From Euryarchaeota archaeon UBA257 (GTDB lineage Archaea > Thermoplasmatota > Poseidoniia > Poseidoniales > Thalassarchaeaceae): a DNA stretch of 64,000 nt. Shown here piece by piece: positions 16,701-41,698 of the stretch. How positions within the stretch are numbered: the stretch's first letter is position 1; every line of letters starts with the position of its first letter. The notes below the pieces were generated by a model. That model worked only from the letters and a program-made list of their open reading frames with translations. It had not been told where the DNA came from and did not search any database. Made by a program: the position numbers and the translations under genes. The DNA is taken from contig DAJO01000030.1 of NCBI GenBank assembly GCA_002498985.1, positions 14,586-78,585 of the forward strand, given 5' to 3'.

Positions 16701-17646
16701 GTTAGCAATTGAACAATATGATGTTGCAGTTGAACGTATAGCAGGCCTTGTAGAGGATGGTAAAATTCTTAGACAGCGTCGAAATGATCTTGTTGGAATC
16801 GCAGAAAGACTTGAATCCGAGAGGAAGAAGAGGTTGTTATTAGTATTCGACCATGTGAATAAAAATTTCAGCAGAGTGTATCAGAGTTTGCAACCTGGAG
16901 GAATTGGTAGTTTAAGGCTAGAAAATAGAAAAAATCCCTTTGAAGGCGGTTTAGAGATGGATTGCGTACCTCCAGGTAAGAATAGTAAAACTAGAAGAAA
17001 CCTTCTTTCGGGTGGAGAGAAATCTATGGCCGCTCTTGCTTTGATATTCGCCATTCAAGATTATGAACCAAGTCCATTCTATTATTTCGATGAAGTAGAC
17101 CAAAACTTAGACCCGTTTAATTCAGAGTTAATTGCTTCACTTTGTTTAATGCGTTCACAAAGAGCTCAGTTCATTATGGTGACACTAAGGAAAGTCAGTT
17201 TAAATCTGGCAAATCACCATATTGGCATTACTCATGCGGGAGATGGTTGTAGCCGTAGAATCACAGATTTCGATCGTGCAGCAGCATTACAAATGAGTGA
17301 AGATATAGAAAAAGAAGAAGCGGCTAGGAAACAATCCGATGAAGAGCGCTCAGAATTAGTCCTGCCAGATCCAAATCAAATGCCTAGAGTACCTGAGCCG
17401 CTTGGCACCCCCAAATCACTTGGAGGGCTTGCCGGAAGAGCGGGTGTAGAGTTAGAAGATGAATCAGAAAACTCTGAATCTCCATCACCCGATATTGAAA
17501 ATAAGAATCTAGAAGCATTAAGAGAAAGGACAGAAGACTGGAGCGAAGATATTGCTGAAGACAATATCGTTCAAAAAGCCATCACTGATGAGAGTTTAGG
17601 TGAAGATACAGAAGAGGTTGAATCATCAGAAGTAGAAGTTGAGTGA
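13714..17646 (+). CDS. smc: Chromosome segregation ATPase SMC, with an acidic C-terminal extension of about 117 aa
   Basis: N-terminal head MHLVRIELENFKSFG...ITGPNGSGKSN, long coiled coils, a hinge (GILGTLGEL...ATFLPLN), and C-terminal signature and Walker B LSGGEKSMAALALIFAIQDYEPSPFYYFDEVDQNLD. I prefer ATG 13714 (GGTGAT upstream) over 13657. Confidence 0.92.
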   Translation: MHLVRIELENFKSFGGEIVIPFEEGFTAITGPNGSGKSNCGDAIQFVLGPKSTKSLRASNVSELIYNGGGRGKAARNMSATLVFRNEPEIDGRRRLRIETEEVSFTRSVRLNRKNDTISSYYVNGNPSTATEMRRILAEAGLHGDGYNIVLQGDVTTLATMTPHKRRGVLEEVAGVTAYDDEIRRANNQRKVVENNIETIDLFEDEQKKRLKGLEKERQQALKFKDLKEELDSNKIILKQSRHRNRLDDVRLLGDERSNYSKQVDDLTNQIRDGNTELGKYDEELVQIGDDLDEIMSGDAKELFETIRKHEIDVETNSDRIGDQSKIIESTNHEIEIIREDHQRVKDSYDSAHQELENAQINLSNSQEDLARAALDENQAREAIQSGDRLGRDLNRALGQATELVTQTHQDYSTAKLESDRAEQNAQISSEKLADLEEEYEQATLTRDDLELLGEDIQNGGEAVDRTHLANELQRLTKQEVGLREDRDRAEIRARDAEVDLAKARARQEAKANRPGSAITIAALSKLRQSGEIKGILGTLGELCSPKDTIHEEALAIALGNGLRSIVVTNDEVAADCIKWLRMNGGGRATFLPLNKLSVSRPQGRTLIVSRNPGVLGFAHDLLDYDSEIDIAVRYASRNTLIVQSMDIARKNMGGARMVTLKGDIIEGSGAMTGGSPVGSSRPSFGGGNPGQLGSEKLERSLEEANLIYSTVEAALRELRSNQQDLRDQIHGLDDSDQSVKLREWKSDLSRAQKDVDEIGNKVLAARKELSDAEVLFNSAKSYADKANETHLQALESRVNAAEALQNHTPDHLSQILRNAEKTRTEAERTKLQSESSIISTNERLKILSDRISDLERQISSKQKSINEAEEEVIKLEESIQSSRELLIDLKGQASQFNEEQQILTQRRETILEERASLRASLETRSQNRQTFNSRIEDLNIQINQKRAAVNEIVAELADENIEIPSIDIQLPTVAEAEKVVQGLERRLGYLGDVNMLAIEQYDVAVERIAGLVEDGKILRQRRNDLVGIAERLESERKKRLLLVFDHVNKNFSRVYQSLQPGGIGSLRLENRKNPFEGGLEMDCVPPGKNSKTRRNLLSGGEKSMAALALIFAIQDYEPSPFYYFDEVDQNLDPFNSELIASLCLMRSQRAQFIMVTLRKVSLNLANHHIGITHAGDGCSRRITDFDRAAALQMSEDIEKEEAARKQSDEERSELVLPDPNQMPRVPEPLGTPKSLGGLAGRAGVELEDESENSESPSPDIENKNLEALRERTEDWSEDIAEDNIVQKAITDESLGEDTEEVESSEVEVE

Positions 17647-17652
17647 GGTGTT

Positions 17653-18663
17653 TTGTTGTCTGTTTTCGATGGTTCTTCAATGAGAGATGACATAGTATCT
17701 CGATTACTTGGAGGTGATGCCGATCTGGATACAAACAGGTACCTAGACAGATTAGTCGAATTATCGAAAGTAGAAGAAGCTGAACATCAGTTTTTGATAG
17801 ACCCTTTCGATCGTTCAGTAGCATTAGTTTTCCAACTATTCCATAATAGTGATTTAGACCCATGGGATGTAGATTTATCTGTATTCCTAGAATTATTTTC
17901 TAATAGAATTAATGACTCAGAAAATATCGATTTACCTACTTGTGGACGTTTAGTTCGTATGGCTTGGTCAATACTCAGAGGCCAGGCAAGTACATTGATT
18001 GAGAGGCAAGAGAGATCCCTCTTTGAAGAAGAAATTGAAGATACTTGGGATTTCGAGGATACATGGGAAAGTGATTTTTCAGATGAGGATTATAATTTCT
18101 CAGTAGGAGTACTTACAGGCGCTGCCGATGAAGTGCTACCCAGTATGTTCGAAGGGAGAATTCACCGTGAAGAAGGGAGGCCAGTTACGTTAGGAGAACT
18201 TCTAATGGGTCTCCAAGCAGCAGGAAGACTTTCTGAAGAGCAAAGAATGAGAGAACAAATTGCGAAAGAACGTCGTGAAGCTAATGAGAAAGCAAGGGCT
18301 AGGTTTGGAGGTAGCTTGCATGTTGAAAATCTTGAGGGTGATCTTGAAAGAACTTGGAATGCATTACGTAGCCGTACGATTTCTAATAATGAATCAACTG
18401 ATCTTAGTGAGATAGTTGATATCCTCAAAGAAAATTCTTTGAAGTCAGGGATTGGTCTAGATGAAGCCGAGTCAGAAGCCCAAGTCACAGCTTTAATTTC
18501 ATCTTTGTTTCTTACACATAGAGGTTATGCTGAGGTTTCACAAGATAGTGAGGGGAATATATCTCTGAAGAATCTTCATTTAGATGATGATGATTTTTCA
18601 ACTTTAACAAATAGAATAAACCCTAAATCCAAACTTCCTGGGGGAATTATTTTCAATGAATGA
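17653..18663 (+). CDS. scpA: Segregation and condensation protein A (kleisin)
   Basis: Follows smc directly. Has the LDPWDVDLS motif typical of the ScpA N-terminus and an acidic insertion. TTG start with GAGGTG upstream. Its stop overlaps the scpB start. Confidence 0.8.
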   Translation: MLSVFDGSSMRDDIVSRLLGGDADLDTNRYLDRLVELSKVEEAEHQFLIDPFDRSVALVFQLFHNSDLDPWDVDLSVFLELFSNRINDSENIDLPTCGRLVRMAWSILRGQASTLIERQERSLFEEEIEDTWDFEDTWESDFSDEDYNFSVGVLTGAADEVLPSMFEGRIHREEGRPVTLGELLMGLQAAGRLSEEQRMREQIAKERREANEKARARFGGSLHVENLEGDLERTWNALRSRTISNNESTDLSEIVDILKENSLKSGIGLDEAESEAQVTALISSLFLTHRGYAEVSQDSEGNISLKNLHLDDDDFSTLTNRINPKSKLPGGIIFNE

Positions 18664-19267
18664 TGCAAGTCTTTCAGTAATCCTCGAAGCAATAATGTTC
18701 ACTTCTGGACGCTCAATGTCTACTGAAGAGCTTTCTAAAACAGTTGATAAATCTATTGACGAGGTTAAATCATCTCTAGACGAATTACAATCTAGGATAA
18801 AAAGAAGGCAAGATTCTGCATTGCAATTAACCGAAGTTTCTGGGAGATGGATTTTCGAAGTTCGTCCAAATCTTTCTCCCTTCTTGCCTGAAACATTCCG
18901 TCCTGATACTCCTCAAAGACTCCTTCCTGCGGCTGCATTAATAGCATATCATCAGCCCATGGCCCAGTCTCAATTAGTCGAAATGCTAGGTCAAAGAGCC
19001 TATGATCATGTTAGAGATTTAGCAAACTTAGGTCTTATTGATAGACGTAGAGATGGTTTGACTAGGCGCCTCACTACAACTAGGAGATTCGCAGAGTATT
19101 TCGGTTGTCCTGAAGTTGATTATCGTGCTGTTCGTACATGGTTCCGTTCAGAAGCAGCTAAGGCTGGCCTTACTAGTGCTCAATTGGCTGCTTCTTTGGC
19201 TCCGGATGAACAGATGTCAATTACTGAATTCACTGGTGAAGACGAAATAAATAATTCCGATGAATAA
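18656..19267 (+). CDS. scpB: Segregation and condensation protein B
   Basis: 203 aa. LEAIMFTSGRSMSTEELSK and LPAAALIAYHQPMAQSQLVEMLG...LANLGLI form the tandem winged-helix ScpB pattern. Confidence 0.85.
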   Translation: MNDASLSVILEAIMFTSGRSMSTEELSKTVDKSIDEVKSSLDELQSRIKRRQDSALQLTEVSGRWIFEVRPNLSPFLPETFRPDTPQRLLPAAALIAYHQPMAQSQLVEMLGQRAYDHVRDLANLGLIDRRRDGLTRRLTTTRRFAEYFGCPEVDYRAVRTWFRSEAAKAGLTSAQLAASLAPDEQMSITEFTGEDEINNSDE

Positions 19268-19268
19268 T

Positions 19269-20582
19269 TTATCCATTTCTAATTGTATTTAGAGCAGCCT
19301 CTACAGTTGCCATTGTTATTCTGTCCCCACTCTCTTTGACGATAGTAGCTACTTGATCAATTTCTTCGTCTTTTGCTCCCGCAGAACTAATCATATTTTT
19401 CAAATGTAATTTCATATGTCCTGCTTGTATTCCAACAGTGGCCAATGCTCTTAATGCACCCAAATTTTGAGCCATACCTGCAGCAGCCATTACTTTAGCT
19501 AAATCATCAGCACTATTTATTCCTAGCAGTGCAACGTTGGTTTGAGCGCCGGGATGTATCCTTACTGCTCCGCCAACCAACCCTACAGCCATAGGGCATT
19601 CTATACTTCCAACTAGGTTCCCATCTGCATCTTTTTCCCAATGTGTCATTGAAGTATACTGCTTCTCATGTGCACAGTAAGAGTGTGCGCCGGATTCAAT
19701 AGCTCTCCAATCTTGCCCGCAAGCTATTGCTATAGGTGAAATTGCATTCATTATTCCTTTGTTATGTGTAGTAGCTCTGAAAGGATCTGCTGCTGCAAAA
19801 TGGTATGCTTGTATTACTCCATCTATTACTTCTGAACCTTGTTTTGCATCTCCACTATCTGACATCTCTTCGGGAGTGAATGTAGCACTAACTCTAGCTA
19901 GTCTATGAATCGCGAGATTACTAATAATCCTTAGAATAACAGTGCCTCCTGACAATGCTTCTATTCTGGGTGCGATAGTTTCTGCCATTGTGTTTACTGC
20001 ATTGGCTCCCATTGCATCTCTACAATCTACTAATATGTGGGCAATGACCATAGGGCCGGACATAGTTTCGATAATTCGAACTTCCACATCTTTGCACCCT
20101 CCTCCAAATTTAACTAAGATAGGGTCTACGTCATTGCACAACTGAATCAACTCATCTTTGGCGGAGAGAATAGATTTTTTGGAGGCTTCAGGATCTTCAC
20201 AATTAACGATTTGAATTTGTCCTATCATGATAGGGTCTGTGTTGTTAGATGTAAATCCTCCATTTGATTGACACCTCTTTGCCATATTGGATGCAGCTGC
20301 TACGACACTTGCTTCTTCAACTACAAAAGGTATCAGATAATGTTCACCATCAATAATGAAATTAGTAGCTACTCCAATTGGTAATGAATATCTACCAACA
20401 ACATTCTCTATCATCCGATCCGCAGCGTCTTCTGATAGTTCTGAGTCTGCCCAAGCATTTACTTGTTCAGGAGTTAGCCCTGCAAGTTGTGCGAGTTTCT
20501 CTCTCCTCTCAGGTACTGATAGTTTGTAAAATCCTTTCAATCGACTGTTATCTACTGGCATGTCTCCACCATTCTTTGCCAA
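19269..20582 (-). CDS. hmgA: Hydroxymethylglutaryl-CoA reductase, class II (bacterial/Thermoplasma-type)
   Basis: ENVVGRYSLPIGVATNF, VVEEASVVAAASNMAKR, RDAMGANAVNTMAE, and C-terminal AQNLGALRALATVGIQAGHMKLH match class II hallmarks (EEPSVVAA, GHMxLH). The longest ORF starts at TTG 20582. ATG 20561 (MPVDNSRLKGFYKLS) aligns better with class II N-termini. Confidence 0.9.
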   Translation of the reverse strand: MAKNGGDMPVDNSRLKGFYKLSVPERREKLAQLAGLTPEQVNAWADSELSEDAADRMIENVVGRYSLPIGVATNFIIDGEHYLIPFVVEEASVVAAASNMAKRCQSNGGFTSNNTDPIMIGQIQIVNCEDPEASKKSILSAKDELIQLCNDVDPILVKFGGGCKDVEVRIIETMSGPMVIAHILVDCRDAMGANAVNTMAETIAPRIEALSGGTVILRIISNLAIHRLARVSATFTPEEMSDSGDAKQGSEVIDGVIQAYHFAAADPFRATTHNKGIMNAISPIAIACGQDWRAIESGAHSYCAHEKQYTSMTHWEKDADGNLVGSIECPMAVGLVGGAVRIHPGAQTNVALLGINSADDLAKVMAAAGMAQNLGALRALATVGIQAGHMKLHLKNMISSAGAKDEEIDQVATIVKESGDRITMATVEAALNTIRNG

Positions 20583-20664
20583 GACATATCGTTTGTAATC
20601 TCTTTGCTTTAAAATGCTTGAATGTATTGATTATTTAAGTTAGATACTATTGTTGAATAATCTC

Positions 20665-20710
20665 AAATCTACTTGTTTATCTTGACATTTATCTTTAGAA
20701 AAGTAGATTT
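20665..20710. repeat. Perfect 10-bp inverted repeat AAATCTACTT-N26-AAGTAGATTT enclosing two TTTATCTT direct repeats
   Basis: Arms at 20665-20674 and 20701-20710. TTTATCTT at 20676-20683 and 20688-20695. Read directly from the sequence. Confidence 0.8.
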
Positions 20711-20729
20711 TATTCTTGGTTATTGACTC

Positions 20730-20899
20730 ATTAAAGCGTTAATTTTCATGTTAACGCTTCGTTAACGCATCAAAAAAGCGTTAATAATGCGTTAATAATA
20801 TTTCTAAAAGATAGTTTTAATCAATTTTTTTAGAGTTTTCTATTTAGTTTTTCAATTAAAGCGTTAATATGGTGAATTAAATGCGTAATTAAGCGTGAG
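20730..20899. promoter_or_regulatory. Array of six perfect and two degenerate GCGTTAA motifs (candidate ORB-like origin repeats or operator array)
   Basis: GCGTTAA on the + strand at 20736, 20778, 20789 and 20861; TTAACGC at 20751 and 20762; degenerate GCGTAAT at 20883 and GCGTGAG at 20893. Palindrome AAGCGTTAA-N8-TTAACGCTT at 20734-20759. 11-bp phasing within pairs 20751/20762 and 20778/20789. The exact 14-mer ATTAAAGCGTTAAT occurs at 20730-20743 and 20855-20868. Near-pure A/T core at 20796-20860. Confidence 0.6.
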
Positions 20900-20929
20900 T
20901 ATTATGAACTAGTACTCTTACCGATAGAT

Positions 20930-22909
20930 ATGTACGACAGTGGAGTCAGTTTGATTGACTTCCCTGCAGTACGAGGGAATCCTTTTGATAACCGACCTAT
21001 TGAATCATCAAGAGCTCAAGATTTAGTTGGACGTAAAGAAATGCTACGCAGATGGAGAGAACATATCCATTCCGGTTCACCTAGAATGATCTTATTAGTT
21101 GGAGAATCAGGATCAGGTAGAACTTCAATGATTAATGCTATATCATCCCAAACTCCAAAGAAATATATTGGGCAGTTTCTTTCGGAGGAGAACGATCAAG
21201 AAAAGTCAGTTCTACATGAGATATTAACTCATTTCACATCATTTCAATCTATAACAACAATGAATCAATTATCTCAAAAGTTAATTTCATTATTTGATGA
21301 AGAGAAAGGGCCTTTACCAATTATTGCTTTAGATTATCCTCCTCAAGTAATAGAAATAAATTCCTTCTTGTCCAGAATTTGTCCAATCCTTTCCAGACTT
21401 AGGGCCATGGTAATTGTAAGTCTGACTGAATCGCAATTATTAGAACTCGACGATGAATTAAGAAACCTTTTTGATGAGCCGGATCGGCTAGAGAATTTCA
21501 CAAAGTCTGATATTCAAGATATGGTTAATAATAGAATGAGACTTAAGTCAAAAGAGAAATGGATAATTAATTCAACGATTCTCAACTCTATATTTCAGCG
21601 AACTGGAGGTAATCCAAGAGATGTAATAAGAATTTTGAAGCGTCTAGTAGATGAAAAAAGAGATCTTGGATACCAAGGGACATTGGAAAGTCTGATGTCT
21701 TCCCAGGAGAATAAGAAACCTATAGTGCCTGAAAGAAAATATGTTGAGGATAAGGAATATACAGACAATTATTTCTCTGAACCCGAAACCTATATTCCAG
21801 AAAATAGGGAACATGATATTGAAAAAGATGATTTTATCGATGAAGAACCATCAGACTTATGGGATTATAATGATGAAGAAAACCTTCCTTTATCGGACAA
21901 TAATGAATCAATCAATGAAGAGCATTCATTGTGGGATGATAACTTTCCCGAAATAGATGAGGATTTAGTTGATGATGAAGCCTTTATTCAGGAAGATAAC
22001 CAAGTGGCTAACTTACCACCAGTATCAGAAGAAATTAATCTTCAAAATGACATATTAGAAAACGAGAAAGAATTGTTTATGTCTCCCGGTACTGAACCTC
22101 CAGAAAGATCGCCGCGACCTGCACCTAGAATGAAAAATGATAAATTTGGTTTCTTACTTAATAGAGCAAAAAAAACAACTTCAGGTATAGAATCAAGTCC
22201 TATGTCCGATGTTCCAATTACTTATGCCGATACTAAACCATCACAATCAACTATAGATGATTATGTCAGTAACGAGAATTTCAGAATTAATAATGATGGC
22301 GACACAGATGTGCCAATCGTTACTGAAGCAAAAGTTGACAGAAACATCCTGTCGACTGATTATGAACACATAGATAGTGATGAAGGGGCAGAATGGACGG
22401 TCGAGCCCTCTTACAAATCTACAGTCCCAAAGACAATCTCAAATCCTCCCCAACCTTACGATGAATCTCCAGAAGTAGAAGAATCTTTTCTCGAGGAACA
22501 GATTTTCGAAGACACTGAAATTGAAGTGCCGATTTCACAAGAACCTGAATTTGATAATCCTGTTGAGTTAATTGAATCAACTCCAATATATCGAGAAGAA
22601 AGTAAGGTAATAATTACCAATGTGACTCCTTCAAAAAAATCAAGATTTTCTCCAATCTGGGAACAAGATAAGAAATTGGATGTTGATAGGTTTTATTCCC
22701 TTTCTGATGCTGAGAGAATGATATTGGAAGTTGCAACATTAAGAGAAATATCTCCATCTGACGATGAATTACAGGCTAGATTAGAAGTCGGACGGCCTCG
22801 CCTATCTCAATTATACAATAGCCTTCACAAATCAGGAATGTTGTCGGTTAGAAAGCAAGGTAGGACTCGATTATTCAAATTAAGCGAAGCTGCCGCAAAT
22901 GAATTTTGA
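20930..22909 (+). CDS. Divergent Orc1/Cdc6-like AAA+ protein: degenerate Walker A and B, acidic disordered linker of about 330 aa, C-terminal winged helix-turn-helix
   Basis: The N-terminal roughly 250 aa parallel the canonical Orc1 in this window. LVGRKEML matches LVGRDREL. The P-loop is GESGSGRT (Lys to Arg, nt 21101-21124). The Walker B position reads IIALDY (nt 21332-21337 for DY) against LVLDEVD. Sensor-2-like GGNPRDVIRILKRL matches GDARLAIELL. The C-terminal roughly 70 aa (LSDAERMILEVATLREISPSDDELQARLEVGRPRLSQLYNSLHKSGMLSVRKQGRTRLFKL) form a wHTH pattern. Confidence 0.55.
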   Translation: MYDSGVSLIDFPAVRGNPFDNRPIESSRAQDLVGRKEMLRRWREHIHSGSPRMILLVGESGSGRTSMINAISSQTPKKYIGQFLSEENDQEKSVLHEILTHFTSFQSITTMNQLSQKLISLFDEEKGPLPIIALDYPPQVIEINSFLSRICPILSRLRAMVIVSLTESQLLELDDELRNLFDEPDRLENFTKSDIQDMVNNRMRLKSKEKWIINSTILNSIFQRTGGNPRDVIRILKRLVDEKRDLGYQGTLESLMSSQENKKPIVPERKYVEDKEYTDNYFSEPETYIPENREHDIEKDDFIDEEPSDLWDYNDEENLPLSDNNESINEEHSLWDDNFPEIDEDLVDDEAFIQEDNQVANLPPVSEEINLQNDILENEKELFMSPGTEPPERSPRPAPRMKNDKFGFLLNRAKKTTSGIESSPMSDVPITYADTKPSQSTIDDYVSNENFRINNDGDTDVPIVTEAKVDRNILSTDYEHIDSDEGAEWTVEPSYKSTVPKTISNPPQPYDESPEVEESFLEEQIFEDTEIEVPISQEPEFDNPVELIESTPIYREESKVIITNVTPSKKSRFSPIWEQDKKLDVDRFYSLSDAERMILEVATLREISPSDDELQARLEVGRPRLSQLYNSLHKSGMLSVRKQGRTRLFKLSEAAANEF

Positions 22910-22918
22910 GGAATAATT

Positions 22919-23215
22919 ATGTCAGACAATGGAAGTATCGTATCTAAAGAAAAAGTTCAGAAGTATCTCGATTTAACTACTGAAGCAAGATTAAAAGCCA
23001 CTCCAATTACAAATAATATTGAAGATGAAAAAAGGCTTGAAGATATGCTTAAGATGTGCGATGACTACCAAAAAGACGCTCTTTACTTCATGAATAATGG
23101 AGATTTAGTCCGTGCTTTCGGTGCCATTAATTATGCTCATGCATGGATTGATGCTGCTGTTAGAATTGGCTTACTAGATGGCCATGGAGATGACAGATTG
23201 TTTACTCTACCTTAA
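22919..23215 (+). CDS. Small conserved archaeal protein, DUF357-like
   Basis: 98 aa. INYAHAWIDAAVRIGLLDG resembles the YAHGWLDAGVRLGL signature I associate with DUF357. GAGGAA SD upstream. Family assignment is from memory only. Confidence 0.5.
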   Translation: MSDNGSIVSKEKVQKYLDLTTEARLKATPITNNIEDEKRLEDMLKMCDDYQKDALYFMNNGDLVRAFGAINYAHAWIDAAVRIGLLDGHGDDRLFTLP

Positions 23216-23580
23216 TTCTGTATAAACCTCAATACATTTTTTGAAGTTACTTCAATGTATGAACCACCTGTATTAATTAATCTCTCTTTCAATTTCCTAT
23301 CTACAGTTAGAACTGGCCATCTATTCTCTCTTGATAATTCTAGTAACATTTGGTCAGTATGCCTTAATCCTTCAGGTGCCTTGACTAATTCTGACTTCTT
23401 ATCTAATAGATCCAACAAAAGCCCTCTTCTTTGTTTTGATAATGATAACAACTCTTTTTTGACTTTTTCCAATAATAGATATTTTGGTTTCCCAACAATT
23501 TTACTCATTGCAATATCTATGTTAAGTTCAGCATCAACTAATGCTGCCCATCCGCAAGCGTCTATTAGGACGCATTCCAA
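23212..23580 (-). CDS. PIN-domain protein (predicted nuclease) downstream of eIF2-gamma
   Basis: 122 aa. N-terminal VLIDACGW (first acidic residue) and VLTVDRKLKERL (T-x-D motif) fit a PIN fold. TTG start with GGGGTGA 6 nt upstream. S6e-eIF2gamma-PIN synteny is common in archaea. Confidence 0.55.
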   Translation of the reverse strand: MECVLIDACGWAALVDAELNIDIAMSKIVGKPKYLLLEKVKKELLSLSKQRRGLLLDLLDKKSELVKAPEGLRHTDQMLLELSRENRWPVLTVDRKLKERLINTGGSYIEVTSKNVLRFIQN

Positions 23581-23586
23581 GTAGAT

Positions 23587-24831
23587 TCACCCCACAATTG
23601 TTCCATGGCCTATCAGACGCCATCTGGAACCAACTCTTCTTGATAGTGTGATTCTACTACCAACTTTAGCACAAATTGGTAGTCTAAGAGAAATTTTCGA
23701 AACTTTACCTTTTTTTGTAACTGTACCAACAGAAGTAGCAGTAGCAGAATTAATCATTAACATTTCATTCATAGATAAAGGTCTAACAGGATCTGAATCT
23801 CCTTCCCCTCCAGCAACCATTTTTTCTAGTAGTTCTAAATCCAGTTCTAGAGTCTCCCAAATCGGAGGTAATTCTCCTTGTTTGGCCATAACTTGTCCTG
23901 ATAACTCATCTGCCTTAGTAGTAACAGGATCTAATGGAGTTGCAATCCCACATAATCCTCCTGCATGAGCAGTTTCTAGATTCATCCCTCCCCCCTTAAT
24001 GCTCTCGATATATGTTTCTAAGGGCTCCCAGCGAGTTTTGTTTCCTGCTTTGATTCTTCTTCCAGGTGCAATTGTAATTTTATCACCAACTGAAAAAGAT
24101 CCTTCAACGATACTACCTCCAATTATTCCTCCTGAAAGATCATTTGGGCGAGCACCTGGTCGATTTGTATCAAATGATCTTGCTACATACATTAATCCTA
24201 CATCTTCTTTTGTTCTATCAGGAGTGGGGATTGTATGTTCGATTGCTTGGATTAAAACATCAAGGTTGACATCATGGTGCGCAGAAATAGGTATTATCGG
24301 AGCATTTTCTGCTAATGTTCCTTTTACAAATTGTTTTATTTCATTAAAGGATTCGATTGCTCTTTCTTCAGAAACTAAATCAATTTTATTCTGTACAATG
24401 ACTATATTTTTTATCCCAGCAATCTGTAAAGCAGCTAAATGTTCTCTTGTCTGTGGTTGAGGGCATTTTTCAGTTGCTGAAATTAACAATAATGCACCAT
24501 CCATTATCGATGCACCTGATATCATCACGGCCATCAGAGTTTCGTGACCAGGTGCATCAACAAAAGAAACGACTCTCAATAATTCTTTTTTTGAGTCTTT
24601 TTTCCCTTCGGGATGTTTCCCTTTAGCATAATAATCTCCATCTTCAGTACAGTAAAATGTAGTGTCAGCATATCCAAGTTTAATGCTTATGCCTCTCTTT
24701 CTTTCTTCAGAATGAGTATCTGTCCAAGTTCCGGATAGAGCTTTTGTCAAAGTAGTCTTACCATGATCGACATGTCCGACCATACCGATATTTACCTCTG
24801 GCTGCCTTTTACTTTCAGCCAGAAGCATCAT
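23587..24831 (-). CDS. eif2g: Translation initiation factor 2 subunit gamma
   Basis: GTPase motifs GHVDHGKTTL, DAPGHE and NKID. A zinc-knuckle-like region is absent or reduced. 414 aa. Confidence 0.95.
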   Translation of the reverse strand: MMLLAESKRQPEVNIGMVGHVDHGKTTLTKALSGTWTDTHSEERKRGISIKLGYADTTFYCTEDGDYYAKGKHPEGKKDSKKELLRVVSFVDAPGHETLMAVMISGASIMDGALLLISATEKCPQPQTREHLAALQIAGIKNIVIVQNKIDLVSEERAIESFNEIKQFVKGTLAENAPIIPISAHHDVNLDVLIQAIEHTIPTPDRTKEDVGLMYVARSFDTNRPGARPNDLSGGIIGGSIVEGSFSVGDKITIAPGRRIKAGNKTRWEPLETYIESIKGGGMNLETAHAGGLCGIATPLDPVTTKADELSGQVMAKQGELPPIWETLELDLELLEKMVAGGEGDSDPVRPLSMNEMLMINSATATSVGTVTKKGKVSKISLRLPICAKVGSRITLSRRVGSRWRLIGHGTIVG

Positions 24832-24841
24832 CCCCTACGAT

Positions 24842-25312
24842 TCACTCCTCTTCATCGCCAAGGATAGAACCTAGAGATTTCTTACCATACTCTAGGACCT
24901 TAAGGTTAAGTTGCCGAGTATCTGTACTAATGGTGTTCCCTCTTAGATTTCTACGTCGACGCAATCCATCATATTTGTAACGATAAATTTTAGAATTTTT
25001 CTTAACATAGCGCTTGCCTTTGTAACCAGTTCCAGCAGTAATAAGAACTGATTTGACATTTCCACCTTCTAGTTCAGAACGCATAGGGCGGCCTGTTTTA
25101 TCAGATCCGCCTGTGATTTGGAGCTTATATCCATTCAATGATTGGTCAGCATCTCCCACAAACATACCTTCAACAGAATCTCCAATTTTCTTCCCTAAGA
25201 AGTGATTGAAGTTAGACCCTGTAATTTCTACCGAGAATGAACGACCTTTGGCGCTCGGCCTAGTATCGTTGATTACAGCCTTGAAAGATTGCTCACCTGC
25301 CATTTTACTCAC
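24842..25312 (-). CDS. rps6e: 30S ribosomal protein S6e
   Basis: 156 aa. FKAVINDTRPSAKGRSFSVEI...GYKLQITGGSDKTGRPMR is the typical S6e pattern. AAGGTGAG SD upstream. Confidence 0.9.
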   Translation of the reverse strand: MSKMAGEQSFKAVINDTRPSAKGRSFSVEITGSNFNHFLGKKIGDSVEGMFVGDADQSLNGYKLQITGGSDKTGRPMRSELEGGNVKSVLITAGTGYKGKRYVKKNSKIYRYKYDGLRRRRNLRGNTISTDTRQLNLKVLEYGKKSLGSILGDEEE

Positions 25313-25378
25313 CTTAGACGACTTGCCGACATACGACCCCTATAAGAGCGGTTCGGAAGACGATTTCAAACTGAATAA

Positions 25379-26557
25379 TCATCTTTGCAATTCTTTCTCG
25401 ATTCTTTCTGCTAAATTTGCAGGTGCTACATTGTTCATTGTAATATATTGAGTCCTACCTCTTCCAACATTTGATTTGTCGTTTCTTGTTTCAATTAAGC
25501 CCTGATTTTCTAGAAATTTTAGATGCTTCCAAAATGTAGTATAACTTCTAGCTTTAGTTTCATATTCTTCACAAACAATTTTGTAAAGTTTTTCGGCATC
25601 TCCTGTGTTTATTTCAGACTCCTTTTTCAATCTTCTACAAAGTCCAAGCATGATCAATTTTTGATCTTTCGAAAGCACATCTACTTGACTTGGTTCAATT
25701 GCAGCAACTCTTGCTGAGCTTTGTTCAATATCTTCAATTAGAACTTCACCTCTCCCTGATGATTCAGCCCTTCTTATGGATGAATCAAGTAGTTCAATAG
25801 CTAATCTAGCATCTCCTGATTCTGCAGCCATAACTCCTATTTTTTGTAGAACTTCTTCACTTATTGAACCATTTCTACAGGCTATATCTGCTCTCTGTCG
25901 CGCAATTTCTGTCAATCCCTTTTTATCGTAAGGATTCATTTTTAGGATATTACTTGCACCTAACCTTGATATTATTGCAGGCTCAAATAACTTCAGCAGC
26001 ATAGAATCTTGACTTACTAATATCAATGACAAAGAACCCTGTTTTTCTTGCCCTTCATCAATTCTGAGAAGTTTGTATATCAAATCAGAATTATCCCTTC
26101 TAATTAACAAATCAACTTCATCAAGAACCAATAGAAGGTGGCTATTATGTGAAATTAGGTTTCTTCTAATTGATTGTATAATTTCTCCCGAACTAAGGCC
26201 TCTTTCAGGATGTCCAGAGTCCAATGTAGAAGCAATTCGTTGTAATACTTGAGAAGTTGAGGGGTGGTTTCTACAATTTACATGTGCTAGAACAACTTTC
26301 CTTTTTCCTTCTAAATGACTTAACAAATCATGTCCAAAACGTCTTGTTAGAACGGTCTTACCTGAGCCAACAGGTCCTGTTATTACTGCTCTACAACTTG
26401 AATTATGATTCTCTACATGAGTAAACATACTGGCTAGTTCAGTTAGTTCTCTATCTCTTCCTACTAAGTTGTCAGGTGTCCAGTCAAAAGAAAAAGGCTC
26501 TCTATTTACCAAAACTTTCCCTGCACCTATGCGGTCGAGGTATCCTGGCATCAGCAC
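25379..26557 (-). CDS. cdc6: Orc1/Cdc6 replication initiator (canonical)
   Basis: 392 aa. LVGRDRELTEL, Walker A GPVGSGKTV, Walker B LLLVLDEVD, sensor 2 GDARLAIELL and a C-terminal winged helix (TFWKHLKFLENQGLIETR...GRGRTQYI). Confidence 0.92.
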   Translation of the reverse strand: MLMPGYLDRIGAGKVLVNREPFSFDWTPDNLVGRDRELTELASMFTHVENHNSSCRAVITGPVGSGKTVLTRRFGHDLLSHLEGKRKVVLAHVNCRNHPSTSQVLQRIASTLDSGHPERGLSSGEIIQSIRRNLISHNSHLLLVLDEVDLLIRRDNSDLIYKLLRIDEGQEKQGSLSLILVSQDSMLLKLFEPAIISRLGASNILKMNPYDKKGLTEIARQRADIACRNGSISEEVLQKIGVMAAESGDARLAIELLDSSIRRAESSGRGEVLIEDIEQSSARVAAIEPSQVDVLSKDQKLIMLGLCRRLKKESEINTGDAEKLYKIVCEEYETKARSYTTFWKHLKFLENQGLIETRNDKSNVGRGRTQYITMNNVAPANLAERIEKELQR

Positions 26558-26628
26558 GTTCTTTATTCGGTCGTTCTTAGACCTATCCTAACCTATATGT
26601 ATCTGGTTAATTTTAGATGATGATTTCC

Positions 26629-27738
26629 TCATGGTATTTCATCAAATTGGTATCCATTTTCCCAATTCTTTTCGCCTAATGAGACTTCTAATTCGAATGG
26701 TGTGATTAATGGCTTAGCATACTTTACGGCATCATCAATTGCAATTCTTGGGCAAGCAGTGTTAACGAAAGCATCTACTGGATAGAAATCAATCAAATCT
26801 GGACCTACGTGATCCATTGCTAACAAGTATCCTTTTTTACCGTGTTTCTTGAGTAAATTTTTCATCCTTATCGCTAAATTTCTCCTCATTTGACCGGGTT
26901 TTTCACCAATTAGGATACCAAAACTCTTCGCATTATCTACTGCAAAGATTAGCCCCATCCTCTGTCTTAATAGCCTTTCAATTCGACTGAAAGACATTTC
27001 ACTTGCATCTCCAGTATAAGGGTCAAGCAATGCCAACGGTTTACCTGTGTGCATTACTAGTCCTATTGGATGGAAATCTCCTGAGCCCAAGAATAAGTAG
27101 TGACCAATTGAGGGGTCATCTCCTGAGTAATTGCAGCCTAGAACTTGTCCGGGGAATGTCAATCTCGCACCACCTACTGGTATTTCAACTTCAAAACCAG
27201 CACTTTCAAACCTTTTTTTGTAATCAAATAATAAGTGTAGGTGCTGTATTGAACCAACTAATCCTAATTTTGTTCCTGTAAGAGGAGCAACTCTACCTAC
27301 AGCATCGACAAATCTCTCAACTGCTTCTTCATCAGTAAGGTCAATTTCCTCTCCTGAACTTGTCAATCTTTCTTCCGCGATTGCTTTGTGTTCCATTAGA
27401 ATTGGTATTACTGGATCTATTTTTGGGTCGCCTTCGTATGTCACTGGGATGAAATGTGTGGGCATACCTGAATCTATATTCATCTGAGAATGGCCCATAT
27501 GGGCGACTAATTCAACCCCCATCATTTTCATTTTATCATGTACTAAGTCACAGGCTCCATAACAAGGATCTGCAGCTAAGACTACTTTCGCCGCGGACTC
27601 ATCTTCTATTGCATCCATCATTTCTAATGCTTGCATTTTCAGCCCCTCAGGAACTTGTAATGCAACAAGTCGATGGTCATTTTCTTTAATTCTAGTGACT
27701 AAATCATCCAGCTCGAAATCATGTTTATCCAAATCCAA
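26629..27738 (-). CDS. dph2: 2-(3-amino-3-carboxypropyl)histidine synthase (diphthamide biosynthesis Dph2)
   Basis: 369 aa. VALQVPEGLK, ADPCYGACDL and NTACPRIAIDD are Dph2 radical-SAM-like Cys-containing blocks. Confidence 0.85.
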   Translation of the reverse strand: MDLDKHDFELDDLVTRIKENDHRLVALQVPEGLKMQALEMMDAIEDESAAKVVLAADPCYGACDLVHDKMKMMGVELVAHMGHSQMNIDSGMPTHFIPVTYEGDPKIDPVIPILMEHKAIAEERLTSSGEEIDLTDEEAVERFVDAVGRVAPLTGTKLGLVGSIQHLHLLFDYKKRFESAGFEVEIPVGGARLTFPGQVLGCNYSGDDPSIGHYLFLGSGDFHPIGLVMHTGKPLALLDPYTGDASEMSFSRIERLLRQRMGLIFAVDNAKSFGILIGEKPGQMRRNLAIRMKNLLKKHGKKGYLLAMDHVGPDLIDFYPVDAFVNTACPRIAIDDAVKYAKPLITPFELEVSLGEKNWENGYQFDEIP

Positions 27739-27750
27739 TTTCTCACCTCA

Positions 27751-28338
27751 TCAATCTACAATCTCTACTTTACCATTAATAATGTCAATTCTCGCAAGAG
27801 ACCTTATTGGCCATTCAGGTCTTTCTTTATTCAACCTTTCACGACCATCTCCTTTCTCAATTGCAATCACTATATCTTGGAGAATTACTCCCATATTCTC
27901 TAGAGTTTCTAAGAGTGGTTCCAATGTCCCACCAGTAGATATGACATCATCCACTATCAGAATTCGTTCACCTGCTTTAATGTCATTGATAAAAACCGTA
28001 GACTGAGAATATCCCGTTGCCACATCCACTCTTGCCTCGCCTTCCATACCATAAGATCGTTTACGAATAACCACTGTTGGAATACCAGTTGCGTCACCTA
28101 CAGCGGCTAAAAGTGGTAAACCCATAGCCTCAACAGTCACAATCAAGTCTATTTTTTCCCAATCTACACTTTCAATAATTAAATCTCTAGTAGCACGTAA
28201 AACTTTAGCATCCATTCTAGGGATACCATCAGAAATAGGGTGAATGAAATACGGATATTCCCCCTTCCAAATAATTGGTGAACCACGTAAGGATTCGTGT
28301 AAAACTGAAAGTGGATCTTCGGGCATCATGCCCAACAC
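27751..28338 (-). CDS. hpt: Archaeal-type hypoxanthine/guanine phosphoribosyltransferase
   Basis: 195 aa. LRGSPIIWKGEYPYFIHPISDGIP plus the PRPP loop ILIVDDVISTGGTL match the archaeal HGPRT family as I recall it (MJ1655-like). Confidence 0.75.
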   Translation of the reverse strand: MLGMMPEDPLSVLHESLRGSPIIWKGEYPYFIHPISDGIPRMDAKVLRATRDLIIESVDWEKIDLIVTVEAMGLPLLAAVGDATGIPTVVIRKRSYGMEGEARVDVATGYSQSTVFINDIKAGERILIVDDVISTGGTLEPLLETLENMGVILQDIVIAIEKGDGRERLNKERPEWPIRSLARIDIINGKVEIVD

Positions 28339-28340
28339 AC

Positions 28341-28877: not shown

Positions 28878-28961
28878 TTGAACTACCTCGACTTCGGCCG
28901 ACTGGCCTACCGTATTTAATGATAAGTGAGCAGGATAAATTATCTTTGAACTATAATGAAA

Positions 28962-29903: not shown

Positions 29904-30060
29904 AAAAAACACTCTTCTGTGATGCCGCAATGCTTCTACTAATTTATCTCTAGTACTGTTGAGATTTGATATCTTTCTTGAGATTACAGGCGATTTGCTT
30001 ATGCACCCCCCGCTTTGTGGTTAAGCCCATGCTCGGGTGTGAGCATTGGAGTTACTAGGT

Positions 30061-36969: not shown

Positions 36970-41698
<4,729 letters not shown>

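What the first reader, a model, noticed from the sequence alone, without database searches (positions are those of the whole stretch)
20930..22909. Orc1/Cdc6-like paralog with a dead-looking ATPase site and a ~330-aa acidic disordered insert between the AAA+ and winged-helix domains
The N-terminal roughly 250 aa track the canonical Orc1/Cdc6 encoded 2.5 kb away block by block:
- LVGRKEML against LVGRDREL.
- A P-loop.
- A sensor-2-like GGNPRDVIRILKRL against GDARLAIELL.

The catalytic positions differ:
- The Walker A lysine is arginine (GESGSGRT, codon AGA at 21119-21121).
- The Walker B acidic pair reads D-Y (IIALDY) instead of D-E.

Together these predict nucleotide binding at most, without hydrolysis.

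A C-terminal wHTH of about 70 aa (nt about 22691-22906) is separated from the AAA+ module by about 330 aa of D/E/N-rich low-complexity sequence (nt about 21692-22687). That linker contains a twice-repeated LWD-x-N motif (SDLWDYNDEE and HSLWDDNFPE). Canonical Orc1/Cdc6 proteins join the lid domain to the winged helix directly. I am not aware of a described archaeal Orc with such an insert and a K-to-R/E-to-Y active site. Because it lies directly beside the repeat array, it could be an origin-specific adaptor, regulator or decoy initiator.
Basis: partly seen in the sequence, partly recalled or inferred. Interest (0 to 1): 0.75.

Follow-up and report, generated by a model that had tools for sequence, protein, structure and literature searches.

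The report
Orc-like dead ATPase with acidic linker
This gene encodes an uncharacterised DNA-binding protein, found in every marine Group II archaeon (order Poseidoniales) examined, that looks like a replication initiator with its ATPase catalytic residues replaced and a long acidic floppy segment inserted, and it always sits beside a conserved array of short DNA boxes that it probably binds.

Summary
ORF 20930-22909 (659 aa) has three parts:
- an N-terminal AAA+ module whose Walker A reads GESGSGRT (Arg, not Lys) and whose Walker B reads ALDY (no Glu);
- a disordered linker of about 314 aa with net charge -54;
- a C-terminal winged helix.

These features are not a local accident. They are fixed across a single-copy family found throughout Poseidoniales, always in the same gene neighbourhood.

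The "Orc1/Cdc6 paralog" reading is only partly right.
- The AAA+ fold is closest to Orc1/Cdc6 (Foldseek top 5; hhalign E 4e-10).
- The protein fails every curated Orc1/Cdc6 model.
- Its winged helix is ArsR/MarR-like, not Cdc6-type.
- Its nearest relatives (hhalign E 2e-22) are compact proteins of about 390 aa, each an AAA_16 ATPase domain joined directly to a wHTH. One is named as from Nitrosotalea. They keep GKT and a DD Walker B and have no linker.

So the family is a derived form that gained the linker and lost its catalytic residues.

The upstream gap holds GCGTTAA boxes phased at 11 bp. They lie at a fixed distance from the start codon and are conserved across the order while the flanking DNA is not. 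The tandem-box pattern occurs once per genome.

Most likely the protein binds this array through its wHTH as a non-hydrolysing oligomeric scaffold, autoregulating its own operon. An origin role is possible but unproven.

The parts
20930..22909 (+). Whole gene, 659 aa: a degenerate AAA+ module, an acidic disordered linker and a wHTH
   Evidence: ORF list. More than 500 homologs are found, many of them full length at 586-685 aa. Single copy in conserved synteny.
20930..21715 (+). N-terminal AAA+ core plus lid (residues 1-262), Orc/Cdc6-like fold
   Evidence: AF2 pLDDT 89.8, pTM 0.85. Foldseek top hits are Orc1/Cdc6. hhalign against MGII Orc1 gives E 4e-10, and against compact relatives E 1.8e-22.
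20969..21004 (+). Conserved N-terminal segment VRGNPFDNRPIE (residues 14-25), which precedes LVGR
   Evidence: P18 and F19 are invariant across both families of the order. pLDDT 87-91 with no secondary structure.
21101..21127 (+). Walker A / P-loop GESGSGRTS, with Arg64 in place of the canonical Lys
   Evidence: Arg in 162 of 170 long members and Lys in 8. The glycines and S66 are invariant.
21320..21340 (+). Walker B strand IIALDYP: Asp135 kept, catalytic Glu replaced by Tyr
   Evidence: D is invariant. The next residue is Y/F/H/V/C/A/S/L and never E in the 25 diverse members aligned.
21602..21622 (+). Lid motif TGGNPRD, aligned with Orc1 sensor-2 GDAR
   Evidence: hhalign. R230 is conserved only in the MGIIb branch. 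G227 is invariant, and Pro229 is the consensus residue, kept in nearly all members.
21713..22654 (+). Acidic disordered linker, residues 262-575 (net charge -54)
   Evidence: Composition. pLDDT 30-40. Mean column identity 0.39 against 0.70 and 0.78 for the two domains. Absent from compact relatives.
21839..21880 (+). Linker island 1: DEEPSDLWDYNDEE (acidic with Trp)
   Evidence: D304 and D309 invariant, W311 nearly invariant in A1.
21923..21952 (+). Linker island 2: HSLWDDNFPE (second acidic-Trp motif)
   Evidence: W335 is conserved (at least 80% of sequences) in A1.
22070..22165 (+). Linker islands ELFMSPGTEPP and FGFLLNR (short predicted helix 408-415)
   Evidence: E389, L409 and R412 invariant and F406 nearly invariant. 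The MGIIa consensus keeps GMFGGLxxR. Helix in the AF2 model.
22211..22231 (+). Linker island VPITYAD
   Evidence: Conserved in A1.
22376..22411 (+). Linker island SDEGAEWTVEPS (predicted beta-hairpin 479-491)
   Evidence: W489 invariant, G486 nearly invariant. Hairpin in the model at pLDDT about 52.
22646..22669 (+). Junction motif FSPIWEQD just before the wHTH
   Evidence: P575 and W577 invariant, D580 nearly invariant.
22682..22906 (+). C-terminal ArsR/MarR-type winged helix-turn-helix. The recognition helix is GRPRLSQLYNSL (22787-22837) and the wing is 22841-22885.
   Evidence: pLDDT about 85. Foldseek matches HlyU, SmtB and CzrA at TMt about 0.6, rmsd 2.0-2.3 A. NCBIfam BigR 4e-5 and HTH_metalloreg 3e-4, both below cutoff. 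hhalign to the wHTH of compact relatives gives E 1.1e-12.
20736..20795 (.). Core array of five GCGTTAA boxes. They lie at 20736 (+), 20751 (-), 20762 (-), 20778 (+) and 20789 (+), with start-to-start spacings of 15, 11, 16 and 11 bp.
   Evidence: Invariant in the alignment of 5 loci while the flanks are unconserved. The layout recurs in 48 loci.
20861..20899 (+). Promoter-proximal boxes: GCGTTAA (20861-20867), GCGTAAT (20883-20889) and GCGTGAG (20893-20899)
   Evidence: Conserved columns in A2. The box at -69/-70 is present in most MGIIb loci.
22919..23215 (+). DUF357 gene immediately downstream, probably in the same operon
   Evidence: PF04010 E 6e-18. It follows the homolog in every locus, and stop and start overlap in L075-L077.
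25379..26557 (-). Canonical Orc1/Cdc6 (context and comparison; not part of the gene)
   Evidence: TIGR02928 E 3e-67. AAA_22, Cdc6_lid and Cdc6_C all hit.

Best explanation
The gene encodes a Poseidoniales-specific, sequence-specific DNA-binding scaffold. It derives from a compact Orc/Cdc6-like protein in which an AAA_16-type ATPase is joined directly to a MarR/ArsR-type winged helix.

**What is shown**
- The family replaced the Walker A Lys with Arg.
- It lost the Walker B catalytic acid and has no conserved arginine finger.
- It acquired an acidic disordered linker of about 320 aa between the lid and the wHTH.

**What is inferred**
- The wHTH recognises the 7-bp GCGTTAA boxes upstream of its own gene, one protomer per box.
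- The 11-bp phasing puts protomers on one face of the helix.
- The P-loop, whose glycines, Ser/Thr and Walker B Asp are still under selection, binds nucleotide without turnover. It holds the AAA+ modules in a stable oligomer rather than a switch.
- The long linker uncouples the orientation of each wHTH from the AAA+ core. This would explain why box orientation flips between lineages while spacing is kept.
- The immediate output is control of its own promoter (the target-DUF357 operon), and possibly of the divergent HMG-CoA reductase promoter.
- The conserved Trp/acidic islands in the linker either recruit partner proteins to this single locus or act as a DNA-mimicking auto-inhibitor of the wHTH.
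For: **A family-wide degenerate active site with a preserved P-loop scaffold**
-.

**Compact relatives link the parts**
- They have GSGKT, hhhhDD, GNPR and the same recognition-helix motif R-x-R-L-S-Q, which lies only 71-77 residues after GNPR. In the target the distance is 396 residues.
- hhalign gives E 1.8e-22 for the N-domain and 1.1e-12 for the wHTH.

**The box array**
- The boxes are invariant across 5 loci at 39-100% protein identity, while the flanking DNA is unconserved.
- The array lies at about -200 to -141 and -69 from the ATG in 48 loci. The 11-bp phasing is kept but orientation varies.
- The GCGTTAA core persists in MGIIa, where the protein is only 20-28% identical but keeps the R-x-R-L-S-Q helix.
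- All 40 Poseidoniales hits to the tandem-box pattern lie between HMGR and this gene, with one hit per genome. The 14 bacterial hits are in the range I estimated for chance matches, roughly 17; this is my own arithmetic from the collection's size, not a tool output.

**An independent analogy**
- The compact relative P0263 has two near-identical clusters of five GTTAAT boxes. One lies over its own start codon.

**A precedent**
- Sulfolobus Orc1-2 is an Orc1 paralog that works as a transcription regulator. ATP binding switches it on and hydrolysis switches it off (PMC9738581).
Against: - No direct evidence links this wHTH to these boxes. Co-conservation and adjacency would also be seen if another protein, for example Orc1, bound them.
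- The recognition helix and the box core are both invariant, so no covariation test is possible.
- Nucleotide binding by a GxxGxGRT loop is assumed, not shown.
- The sensor-2 Arg is lost in MGIIa.
- A 659-aa protein with about seven conserved linker motifs seems over-built for simple autoregulation.
- A motif that occurs at one locus per genome also fits an origin or a centromere-like site.
Confidence: 0.5

Rival explanations
1. Origin-specific accessory or co-initiator. On this reading the box array is, or is part of, the chromosomal replication origin of Poseidoniales. The protein marks it and uses its linker motifs to recruit or restrain MCM, Orc1 or other replisome parts. It would be a catalytically inert Orc-like subunit, comparable in logic to the eukaryotic subunits Orc2 and Orc3 (Orc2/3).
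For: - The canonical Orc1 gene has only 66-bp and 71-bp flanks, too short to hold an origin. The 347-bp gap is the largest true intergenic region in the 64-kb window and lies 4.4 kb from orc1.
- No classical ORB-like element is enriched in the window, and no other repeat array lies next to orc1.
- The tandem-box motif occurs once per genome.
- The boxes occur in inverted groups.
- Synteny with SMC-ScpAB and Orc1 is conserved across the whole order.
- The fold is nearest to Orc1/Cdc6.
- An accessory origin-binding protein exists in Sulfolobus: UBP (PMC12141716).
Against: - The boxes bear no resemblance to known ORB or mini-ORB sequences (my own knowledge of those consensus sequences).
- The array keeps a fixed distance to this gene's ATG, while the HMGR side varies between 280 and 430 bp. 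That is typical of a promoter-linked operator.
- The 60-65-nt spacer is AT-rich here but not in L003, so no conserved unwinding element is evident.
- Genes on both sides mostly point towards the gap, not away from it.
- A GC3-skew regression shows no break at 20.8 kb, although 64 kb is too short to be decisive.
- The nearest relatives sit in a transposase/AbiEii island, not at origins.
Confidence: 0.25
2. The boxes are not this protein's target. Another factor binds the array to control HMG-CoA reductase and/or this operon, and this protein binds DNA elsewhere or not sequence-specifically. The adjacency would then reflect only the very stable gene order of Poseidoniales.
For: - The whole 20-kb neighbourhood is syntenic across the order, so adjacency alone is weak evidence.
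- HMGR is divergently transcribed from the same gap.
- The box unit contains a TATA-like TTAATA.
Against: - The array is positioned relative to this gene rather than to HMGR.
- A relative with the same recognition-helix motif has clusters with a GTTAAT core over its own start.
- The tandem-box pattern was found nowhere else in 40 genomes.
Confidence: 0.17
3. A STAND-type or defence-type signalling NTPase (AAA_16/nSTAND/KAP-like) that was fixed in the core genome, with the linker acting as a sensor region.
For: - Pfam hits to AAA_16 (26 of 26 members), nSTAND1 (16 of 26) and NACHT (2 of 26).
- CED-4, Apaf-1 and NLR proteins appear among the fold matches.
- The compact relative lies next to AbiEii, a HATPase_c protein and transposases.
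Against: - The nSTAND hits cover only the P-loop stretch and fall below the cutoffs.
- The protein has no repeat-type sensor domain.
- It is single-copy, lies in a housekeeping neighbourhood and is universal in the order. That is the opposite of the patchy distribution of defence genes.
- PADLOC was not run.
- No homologs or linked boxes were found in viral contigs.
Confidence: 0.05

Closest known systems
Compact AAA_16 / 'ORC-CDC6-like' (PF24389, weak) + MarR/TrmB-wHTH proteins of about 360-400 aa (P0263, P0265, P0398-P0412; one is annotated 'AAA family ATPase [Nitrosotalea sp.]')
   Same: - Colinear N-domain (hhalign E 1.8e-22 over 222 columns) and wHTH (E 1.1e-12).
- A shared G-N-P-R lid motif and the R-x-R-L-S-Q recognition helix.
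- Clustered short boxes with a GTTAA(T) core at the protein's own promoter.
   Different: - The relatives keep the canonical GSGKT, and the three in which a Walker B was identified keep hhhhDD.
- In them the lid joins the wHTH within about 10 residues, so there is no acidic linker.
- They form a small family and sit in a mobile or defence-like context.
- They are themselves uncharacterised.
Archaeal Orc1/Cdc6 initiators (TIGR02928; structures 2qby, 2v1u)
   Same: - AAA+ core, lid and C-terminal winged helix in the same order.
- Two helices between beta2 and beta3.
- LVGR and sensor-2 motifs align.
- Best Foldseek matches.
- The gene lies 2.5 kb from the resident orc1.
   Different: - Fails the curated models (13.8 bits against a cutoff of 181).
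- Walker A has R rather than K, Walker B has DY rather than DE, and there is no conserved arginine finger.
- The ISM-equivalent helices are not basic. I read this directly from the sequence.
- The wHTH is not Cdc6_C type.
- A 314-aa linker is inserted.
- The adjacent boxes do not resemble ORBs.
Saccharolobus Orc1-2, a non-initiator Orc1 that acts as the DNA-damage transcription regulator (PMC9738581)
   Same: An Orc-type AAA+-wH protein put to use as a promoter-binding regulator. Its nucleotide state controls DNA binding, and a hydrolysis-dead form stays 'on'.
   Different: - Orc1-2 keeps canonical Walker A and B motifs, the ISM and a Cdc6-type wH joined directly to the lid.
- It controls hundreds of genes.
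- Here the dead state is the evolved wild type, and the tandem-box motif is found at one locus only.
ArsR/SmtB-family winged-helix repressors (HlyU 4k2e, SmtB 1smt, CzrA, BigR)
   Same: The fold of the last 75 or so residues (TMt about 0.6, rmsd 2.0-2.3 A). Sequence hits are weak.
   Different: - Scores fall below the family cutoffs.
- It is fused to an AAA+ module through a disordered linker.
- No metal- or redox-sensing residues were assessed.
- The target sites are 7-bp boxes at 11-bp phasing rather than a single 12-2-12 palindrome (the latter from my own knowledge).
Catalytically inert ORC subunits of eukaryotes (Orc2, Orc3) and other AAA+ pseudo-ATPases
   Same: An Orc-like AAA+ fold kept as a structural or oligomerisation module after the catalytic residues were lost (general knowledge; a resemblance in logic only).
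   Different: - No evidence here of a hetero-oligomer with Orc1.
- The P-loop glycines and the basic residue are retained, which suggests a ligand is still bound.

Membership tests
Orc1/Cdc6 (TIGR02928 / COG1474) | Scores above the curated family model cutoff | tested here: not met
   TIGR02928 gives 13.8 bits against a cutoff of 181.3, and only residues 37-77 match. The neighbouring Orc1 scores 226.9.
Orc1/Cdc6 (TIGR02928 / COG1474) | AAA+ core with an extra helical insert between beta2 and beta3 (initiator-specific motif position), followed by a lid | tested here: met
   The AF2 model (pLDDT 89.8) has E78-81, H90-102, H111-123, E131-134 and lid helices H192-243. These align colinearly with Orc1. 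The same insert also occurs in STAND and AAA_22 proteins, so it is not exclusive to Orc1/Cdc6.
Orc1/Cdc6 (TIGR02928 / COG1474) | Walker A GxxGxGK[ST] lysine | tested here: not met
   GESGSGRT. Arg in 162 of 170 long members.
Orc1/Cdc6 (TIGR02928 / COG1474) | Walker B hhhhDE catalytic glutamate | tested here: not met
   IIALDY. No Glu at this position in any of the 25 diverse members aligned.
Orc1/Cdc6 (TIGR02928 / COG1474) | Arginine finger (box VII, 'SR' after sensor 1) | tested here: not met
   The column aligned to the R of Orc1 ISRL is L, with no conserved Arg nearby. The family consensus there is xxxFD.
Orc1/Cdc6 (TIGR02928 / COG1474) | Sensor-2 arginine in the lid (GDAR) | tested here: inconclusive
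   GGNPR aligns with GDAR, and R230 is invariant in the MGIIb branch. In the MGIIa branch it is replaced by A/G/S.
Orc1/Cdc6 (TIGR02928 / COG1474) | Cdc6-type winged helix (PF09079) joined directly to the lid | tested here: not met
   No PF09079 or PF22703 hit. hhalign of the C-terminus against the Orc1 WHD gives E 0.1. The two domains are separated by 314 disordered residues.
Orc1/Cdc6 (TIGR02928 / COG1474) | Nearest structural neighbours are Orc1/Cdc6 | tested here: met
   Foldseek ranks 1-5 are Orc1/Cdc6 (E 1.8e-8 to 1.9e-7). RFC, TnsC, MgsA and CED-4 follow within tenfold, with equal TM-scores.
Orc1/Cdc6 (TIGR02928 / COG1474) | Binds ORB elements at an origin and loads MCM | not testable with these tools
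   Needs biochemistry or marker-frequency analysis. No ORB-like motif is enriched in the window.
Compact AAA_16-wHTH ('ORC-CDC6-like') family of P0263 | Colinear homology of both the ATPase-lid module and the wHTH | tested here: met
   hhalign E 1.8e-22 and 1.1e-12. Two colinear BLASTP HSPs. The reciprocal search with P0263 recovers the MGII family directly after its own family.
Compact AAA_16-wHTH ('ORC-CDC6-like') family of P0263 | Canonical GKT and DD motifs and a direct lid-wHTH junction (about 390 aa) | tested here: not met
   All 14 compact members have K. The gap from GNPR to the recognition helix is 71-77 aa, against 396 aa here.
ArsR/SmtB wHTH regulators | Winged-helix fold of the ArsR type | tested here: met
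   Foldseek: HlyU, SmtB, CzrA, SqrR and NolR at TMt 0.55-0.63, rmsd 2.0-2.8 A.
ArsR/SmtB wHTH regulators | Scores above the curated family cutoff; dimerisation helices and sensing sites | tested here: not met
   HTH_metalloreg scores 20.6 against 55 and BigR 23.5 against 155. Only a short helix follows the wing. Sensing residues were not examined.
STAND NTPases | NACHT/NB-ARC-type NTPase followed by a repeat sensor domain | tested here: not met
   nSTAND1 and NACHT hits are below cutoff and limited to the P-loop region. A disordered acidic segment follows the lid, not TPR, WD or LRR repeats.
Clamp-loader (RFC) clade | Minimal AAA+ with a single helix between beta2 and beta3, plus a C-terminal collar domain | tested here: not met
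   There are two helices between beta2 and beta3 and no collar. RFC matches are comparable in TM-score but rank below Orc1/Cdc6. The one-helix criterion comes from my own knowledge of RFC structures.

The most novel reading that the evidence does not exclude
The GCGTTAA array is the non-canonical replication origin, or a centromere-like chromosome-organising site, of Poseidoniales. This Orc-derived pseudo-ATPase would then be its dedicated recognition factor. It would form a permanently 'ATP-locked' oligomer on the 11-bp-phased boxes. Its Trp/acidic linker motifs would recruit MCM, Orc1 or SMC-ScpAB. That would make it an archaeal counterpart of the inert ORC subunits combined with a Cdt1/WhiP-like adaptor in one polypeptide.
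Probability: 0.2. Interest if true: 0.85.

Novelty: new variant of a known kind. Interest (0 to 1): 0.6.

Why it matters
Poseidoniales (Marine Group II) are among the most abundant planktonic archaea and have never been cultured. Nothing is known experimentally about how they start replication or organise their chromosome.

This work defines a universal, single-copy, order-specific protein together with its probable DNA site. The site is an 8-box array conserved over a divergence at which the protein keeps only 20-40% identity. This gives three things:
- a concrete protein-DNA pair that can be tested in vitro without culturing the organism;
- a natural example of an Orc/Cdc6-like AAA+ module that evolved into a non-hydrolysing form (K to R, with no catalytic Glu and no arginine finger), yet keeps its P-loop under selection;
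- a clear case of a roughly 320-residue acidic disordered insertion with conserved short motifs in an archaeal DNA-binding protein, for which compact relatives without the linker are available for comparison.

If the array proves to be the origin, it would also define a new class of archaeal origin element.

Tried and rejected
- **BLASTP against the window's Orc1.** No significant match. The "block by block" similarity appears only at profile level.
- **Full-length AF2 model.** Its confidence was too low for fold assignment (pLDDT 53). On it RFC ranked first. The N-domain model built on a 26-sequence alignment superseded it.
- **Classical ORB search.** TTCCAGTGGAAAC with up to 3 mismatches gave 21 hits against 19.9 expected, none near the gap.
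- **Repeats in other gaps around orc1.** Nothing comparable.
- **GC3/AT3-skew regression across the window.** A break at 20.8 kb fits no better than arbitrary breaks, so this is uninformative.
- **RNA element in the gap.** Rfam gave only RAGATH-6 at 25 bits against a cutoff of 170. Box1/box2 and box3/box4 could pair as hairpins, but lineages whose boxes are all direct repeats (L017, L021, L047) rule out a conserved RNA structure.
- **Viral or mobile origin.** The box pattern hits 11 viral contigs, none carrying a homolog of the target or of HMGR. The search for related loci with A4 could not run.
- **Stand-alone wHTH paralogs** (80-200-aa hits). On inspection they are C-terminal fragments or chimeric gene calls.
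- **A PIP-box reading of QSTIDDYV** (about residues 440-447). The motif is conserved only in the closest clade and its last position is not aromatic, so I did not pursue it.
- **Position in a 1.5-Mb contig** (811-833 kb). This says nothing about the origin.


Full report
**1. The observation**

ORF 20930..22909 (+, 659 aa) exists as described.
- Arg64 is encoded by AGA at 21119-21121, inside GESGSGRTS.
- Walker B reads IIALDYP (residues 131-137).
- The lid carries TGGNPRD (residues 225-231).
- The two LWD motifs are at residues 304-317 and 332-341.

The segment 262-575 has 26% D+E, 10% Pro and net charge -54. AlphaFold leaves it unstructured at pLDDT 30-40, apart from a short helix (408-415) and a hairpin (479-491). 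The last 75 or so residues form a confident winged helix at pLDDT about 85.

A canonical Orc1/Cdc6 lies 2.47 kb downstream (TIGR02928 E 3e-67).

**2. It is a family, not an accident**

More than 500 homologs were found, many of them full length at 586-685 aa. All are from marine metagenomes or genomes labelled Poseidoniales, MGII, Thalassarchaeaceae or Poseidoniaceae.

An exhaustive HMMER pass over 1.84 billion cluster representatives found only 204 proteins at E <= 1e-3. No Orc1 was seen among the 150 listed or those I examined.

The two families of the order are only 20-28% identical in the N-domain, yet they share the architecture.
- Walker A has Arg in 162 of 170 long members and Lys in 8.
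- The residue after the Walker B Asp is Y/F/H/V/C/A/S/L and never Glu in the 25 diverse members aligned.
- No conserved Arg occupies the arginine-finger column.
- The sensor-2-like Arg is kept only in the MGIIb branch.
- In contrast G58, G61, G63, S66 and D135 are invariant.

I infer a pocket that still binds phosphate or nucleotide but has no catalytic machinery.

The linker is variable (mean identity 0.39 against 0.70 and 0.78 for the two domains) but holds conserved islands:
- DEEPxDLWD
- a second acidic Trp motif
- ELFMxPGTEPP
- FGxLxxR
- PITYAD
- EGAEWTVEPS
- FxPxWxxD

**3. What the domains are**

Pfam gives only AAA_16 (26 of 26 members), AAA_22 (17) and nSTAND1 (16), all near or below their cutoffs. 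BLASTP against the resident Orc1 finds nothing.

Profile-profile comparison of a 26-sequence N-domain alignment with seven MGII Orc1 sequences gives 96.7% probability and E 4.3e-10. The alignment covers 212 columns, running from LVGR through the P-loop, the two-helix insert, Walker B and sensor 1 to GGNPR/GDAR.

With that alignment AlphaFold gives pLDDT 89.8 and pTM 0.85. Foldseek then ranks S. solfataricus Orc1-1, Drosophila Orc1 (twice), A. pernix Orc1 and yeast Cdc6 first (E 1.8e-8 to 1.9e-7). RFC small subunit, TnsC, MgsA and CED-4 follow closely with the same TM-scores of 0.5-0.6.

The C-terminal domain is not Cdc6-type. It gives no Pfam hit, and hhalign against the Orc1 WHD gives E 0.1. 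It superposes instead on ArsR/SmtB/HlyU proteins.

**4. The nearest relatives**

Weak hits led to compact proteins of about 360-400 aa: P0263, P0265 and P0398-P0412. One is annotated as from Nitrosotalea. They have these features:
- AAA_16, ATPase_2 and weak 'ORC-CDC6-like' Pfam hits;
- a MarR/TrmB-type wHTH;
- canonical GSGKT, and hhhhDD in the three where a Walker B was found;
- a GNPR lid motif;
- the recognition helix R-S-R-L-S-Q, as in the target.

hhalign gives the following:

| Comparison | E-value | Columns |
|---|---|---|
| Target N-domain vs compact family | 1.8e-22 | 222 |
| Target N-domain vs MGII Orc1 | 3.8e-10 | 210 |
| Target wHTH vs compact family | 1.1e-12 | 67 |
| Compact family vs MGII Orc1 (includes the winged helix) | 1.5e-8 | 207 |

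In the compact proteins the recognition helix follows GNPR by 71-77 residues. In the target the distance is 396 residues.

The most economical reading is a lineage running from Orc/Cdc6-like proteins, to the compact AAA_16-wHTH form, to the Poseidoniales form. The last step involved inserting about 320 disordered residues and losing the catalytic residues. The direction of change is inferred, not shown.

**5. The DNA next to it**

The 347-bp gap is the largest true intergenic region in the window. All six exact GCGTTAA copies in the 64 kb lie at 20736-20867.

The layout is as follows:
- forward box, 8 nt, reverse box, 4 nt, reverse box, 9 nt, forward box, 4 nt, forward box;
- then about 65 unconserved nt;
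- then GCGTTAA, GCGTAAT and GCGTGAG, ending 31 nt before the ATG.

An alignment of five loci whose proteins are 39-100% identical shows the boxes invariant and everything else unconserved.

Across 48 loci the array stays at about -200 to -141 and -69 from the ATG. The 11-bp steps persist, but box orientation differs between lineages. Examples are four or five direct repeats in L017, L021 and L047. The HMGR side of the gap varies from 280 to 430 bp.

MGIIa loci keep the GCGTTAA/TTAACGC core, including palindromes such as TTAACGCGTTAA.

A scan of 185,579 species genomes for AAGCGTTAAYAAWGCGTTAA gave 54 hits.
- 40 are Poseidoniales, one per genome, and every one lies between HMGR and a homolog of this gene.
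- 14 are bacterial, in the range I estimated for chance matches, roughly 17; this is my own arithmetic from the collection's size, not a tool output.

Orientation flips with preserved phasing argue for protein-binding sites on DNA, not an RNA structure. Rfam finds nothing.

**6. An independent hint linking wHTH and boxes**

The compact relative P0263 lies in a transposase/AbiEii island. It has two near-identical 45-bp clusters of five GTTAAT boxes each. One covers its own start codon and the other lies 4 kb away. Together they hold 10 of the 18 copies in 17 kb.

So a related recognition helix is found next to a related box core. This is suggestive, not proof.

**7. Mechanism proposed**

Shown:
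- the architecture;
- the degenerate active site;
- the disorder of the linker;
- the conservation and uniqueness of the array;
- its fixed register to the gene.

Inferred:
- each wHTH reads one box;
- the AAA+ modules, with nucleotide bound but not hydrolysed, hold the protomers together;
- the long linker lets the wHTH domains reach boxes in either orientation;
- the complex controls the promoter of the target-DUF357 operon. DUF357 follows by 9 nt here and overlaps the target's stop in L075-L077;
- the linker islands recruit partners or mask the wHTH.

Sulfolobus Orc1-2 is a precedent. It shows that an Orc-type protein can be a transcription regulator that is 'on' when it cannot hydrolyse ATP (PMC9738581).

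**8. Origin hypothesis**

It remains open.

In favour:
- orc1 has flanks of only 66 and 71 bp;
- no ORB-like element or other array lies nearby;
- the tandem-box motif occurs once per genome;
- the locus lies in a neighbourhood that includes SMC-ScpAB and Orc1.

Against:
- the register to the ATG looks like an operator;
- the spacer is not consistently AT-rich;
- genes converge on the gap rather than diverge from it;
- the skew analysis shows nothing, though the window is too short for it to count.

I put it at about 0.25.

**9. Verdict**

This is a real, order-wide, undescribed family. Sources label its members 'hypothetical', 'ATP-binding protein' or 'wHTH regulator'.

I class it as a new variant of the Orc/Cdc6-like AAA+-winged-helix kind. 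It is not a member of Orc1/Cdc6 proper.

It is interesting for three reasons:
- the naturally fixed hydrolysis-dead site;
- the large acidic insertion carrying conserved motifs;
- the deeply conserved, genome-unique box array, in an abundant lineage that has never been cultured.

Noticed in passing
window 41674-41698 and 41800-41817: A perfect palindrome, TGAGGGTTCC-CTAAA-GGAACCCTCA, lies in the 191-bp divergent gap upstream of gyrB (39692-41662, - strand). A 72% partial inverted copy lies 107 nt away. It could be an operator. Its TTCC...GGAA dyad is faintly ORB-like.
   Followed up: no
L060 9845-10900; L061 10016-11068; also L055, L053, L013, L047: In Poseidoniaceae-type loci an extra ORF of about 350 aa with no Pfam hit lies between the target homolog and DUF357. 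Its start overlaps the target's stop. It has W/G-rich repeats (GGGWVL, DGWWVL) and a helical TPR-like tail. It is absent from the window and from the other MGIIb loci examined, and is a possible partner protein.
   Followed up: partly
window 22919-23215: A DUF357 gene follows the target by 9 nt here, and its start overlaps the target's stop in L075-L077. It is present after the homolog in every locus, so it is probably co-transcribed. Its function is unknown.
   Followed up: partly
L073 3866-3912 and 7973-8011: There are two near-identical clusters of about 45 bp, each with five GTTAAT boxes, in a transposase/AbiEii/HATPase_c island. One cluster covers the P0263 start codon. This looks like a two-site regulon of that protein.
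   Followed up: partly
window 13657-29930: The block SMC-ScpA-ScpB-HMGR-target-DUF357-PIN-eIF2gamma-S6e-Orc1-Dph2-PRTase-L10e-EamA is syntenic across both families of Poseidoniales. Only small insertions interrupt it: an MscS channel in L075 and L077, and a luciferase-like gene in L001.
   Followed up: yes
L065, L066, L068 (IMG/VR contigs): Some viral contigs carry many GCGTTAA copies (14 in L065; two arrays on IMGVR_UViG_2615840593_000001) but no homolog of the target or of HMGR. These are probably unrelated iterons that share the core by chance.
   Followed up: partly
P0264 (488 aa, Logan): One compact relative carries a C-terminal cupredoxin/plastocyanin-like domain (PF00127, E 7e-9) after the wHTH. 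This fusion is odd for a DNA-binding ATPase.
   Followed up: no
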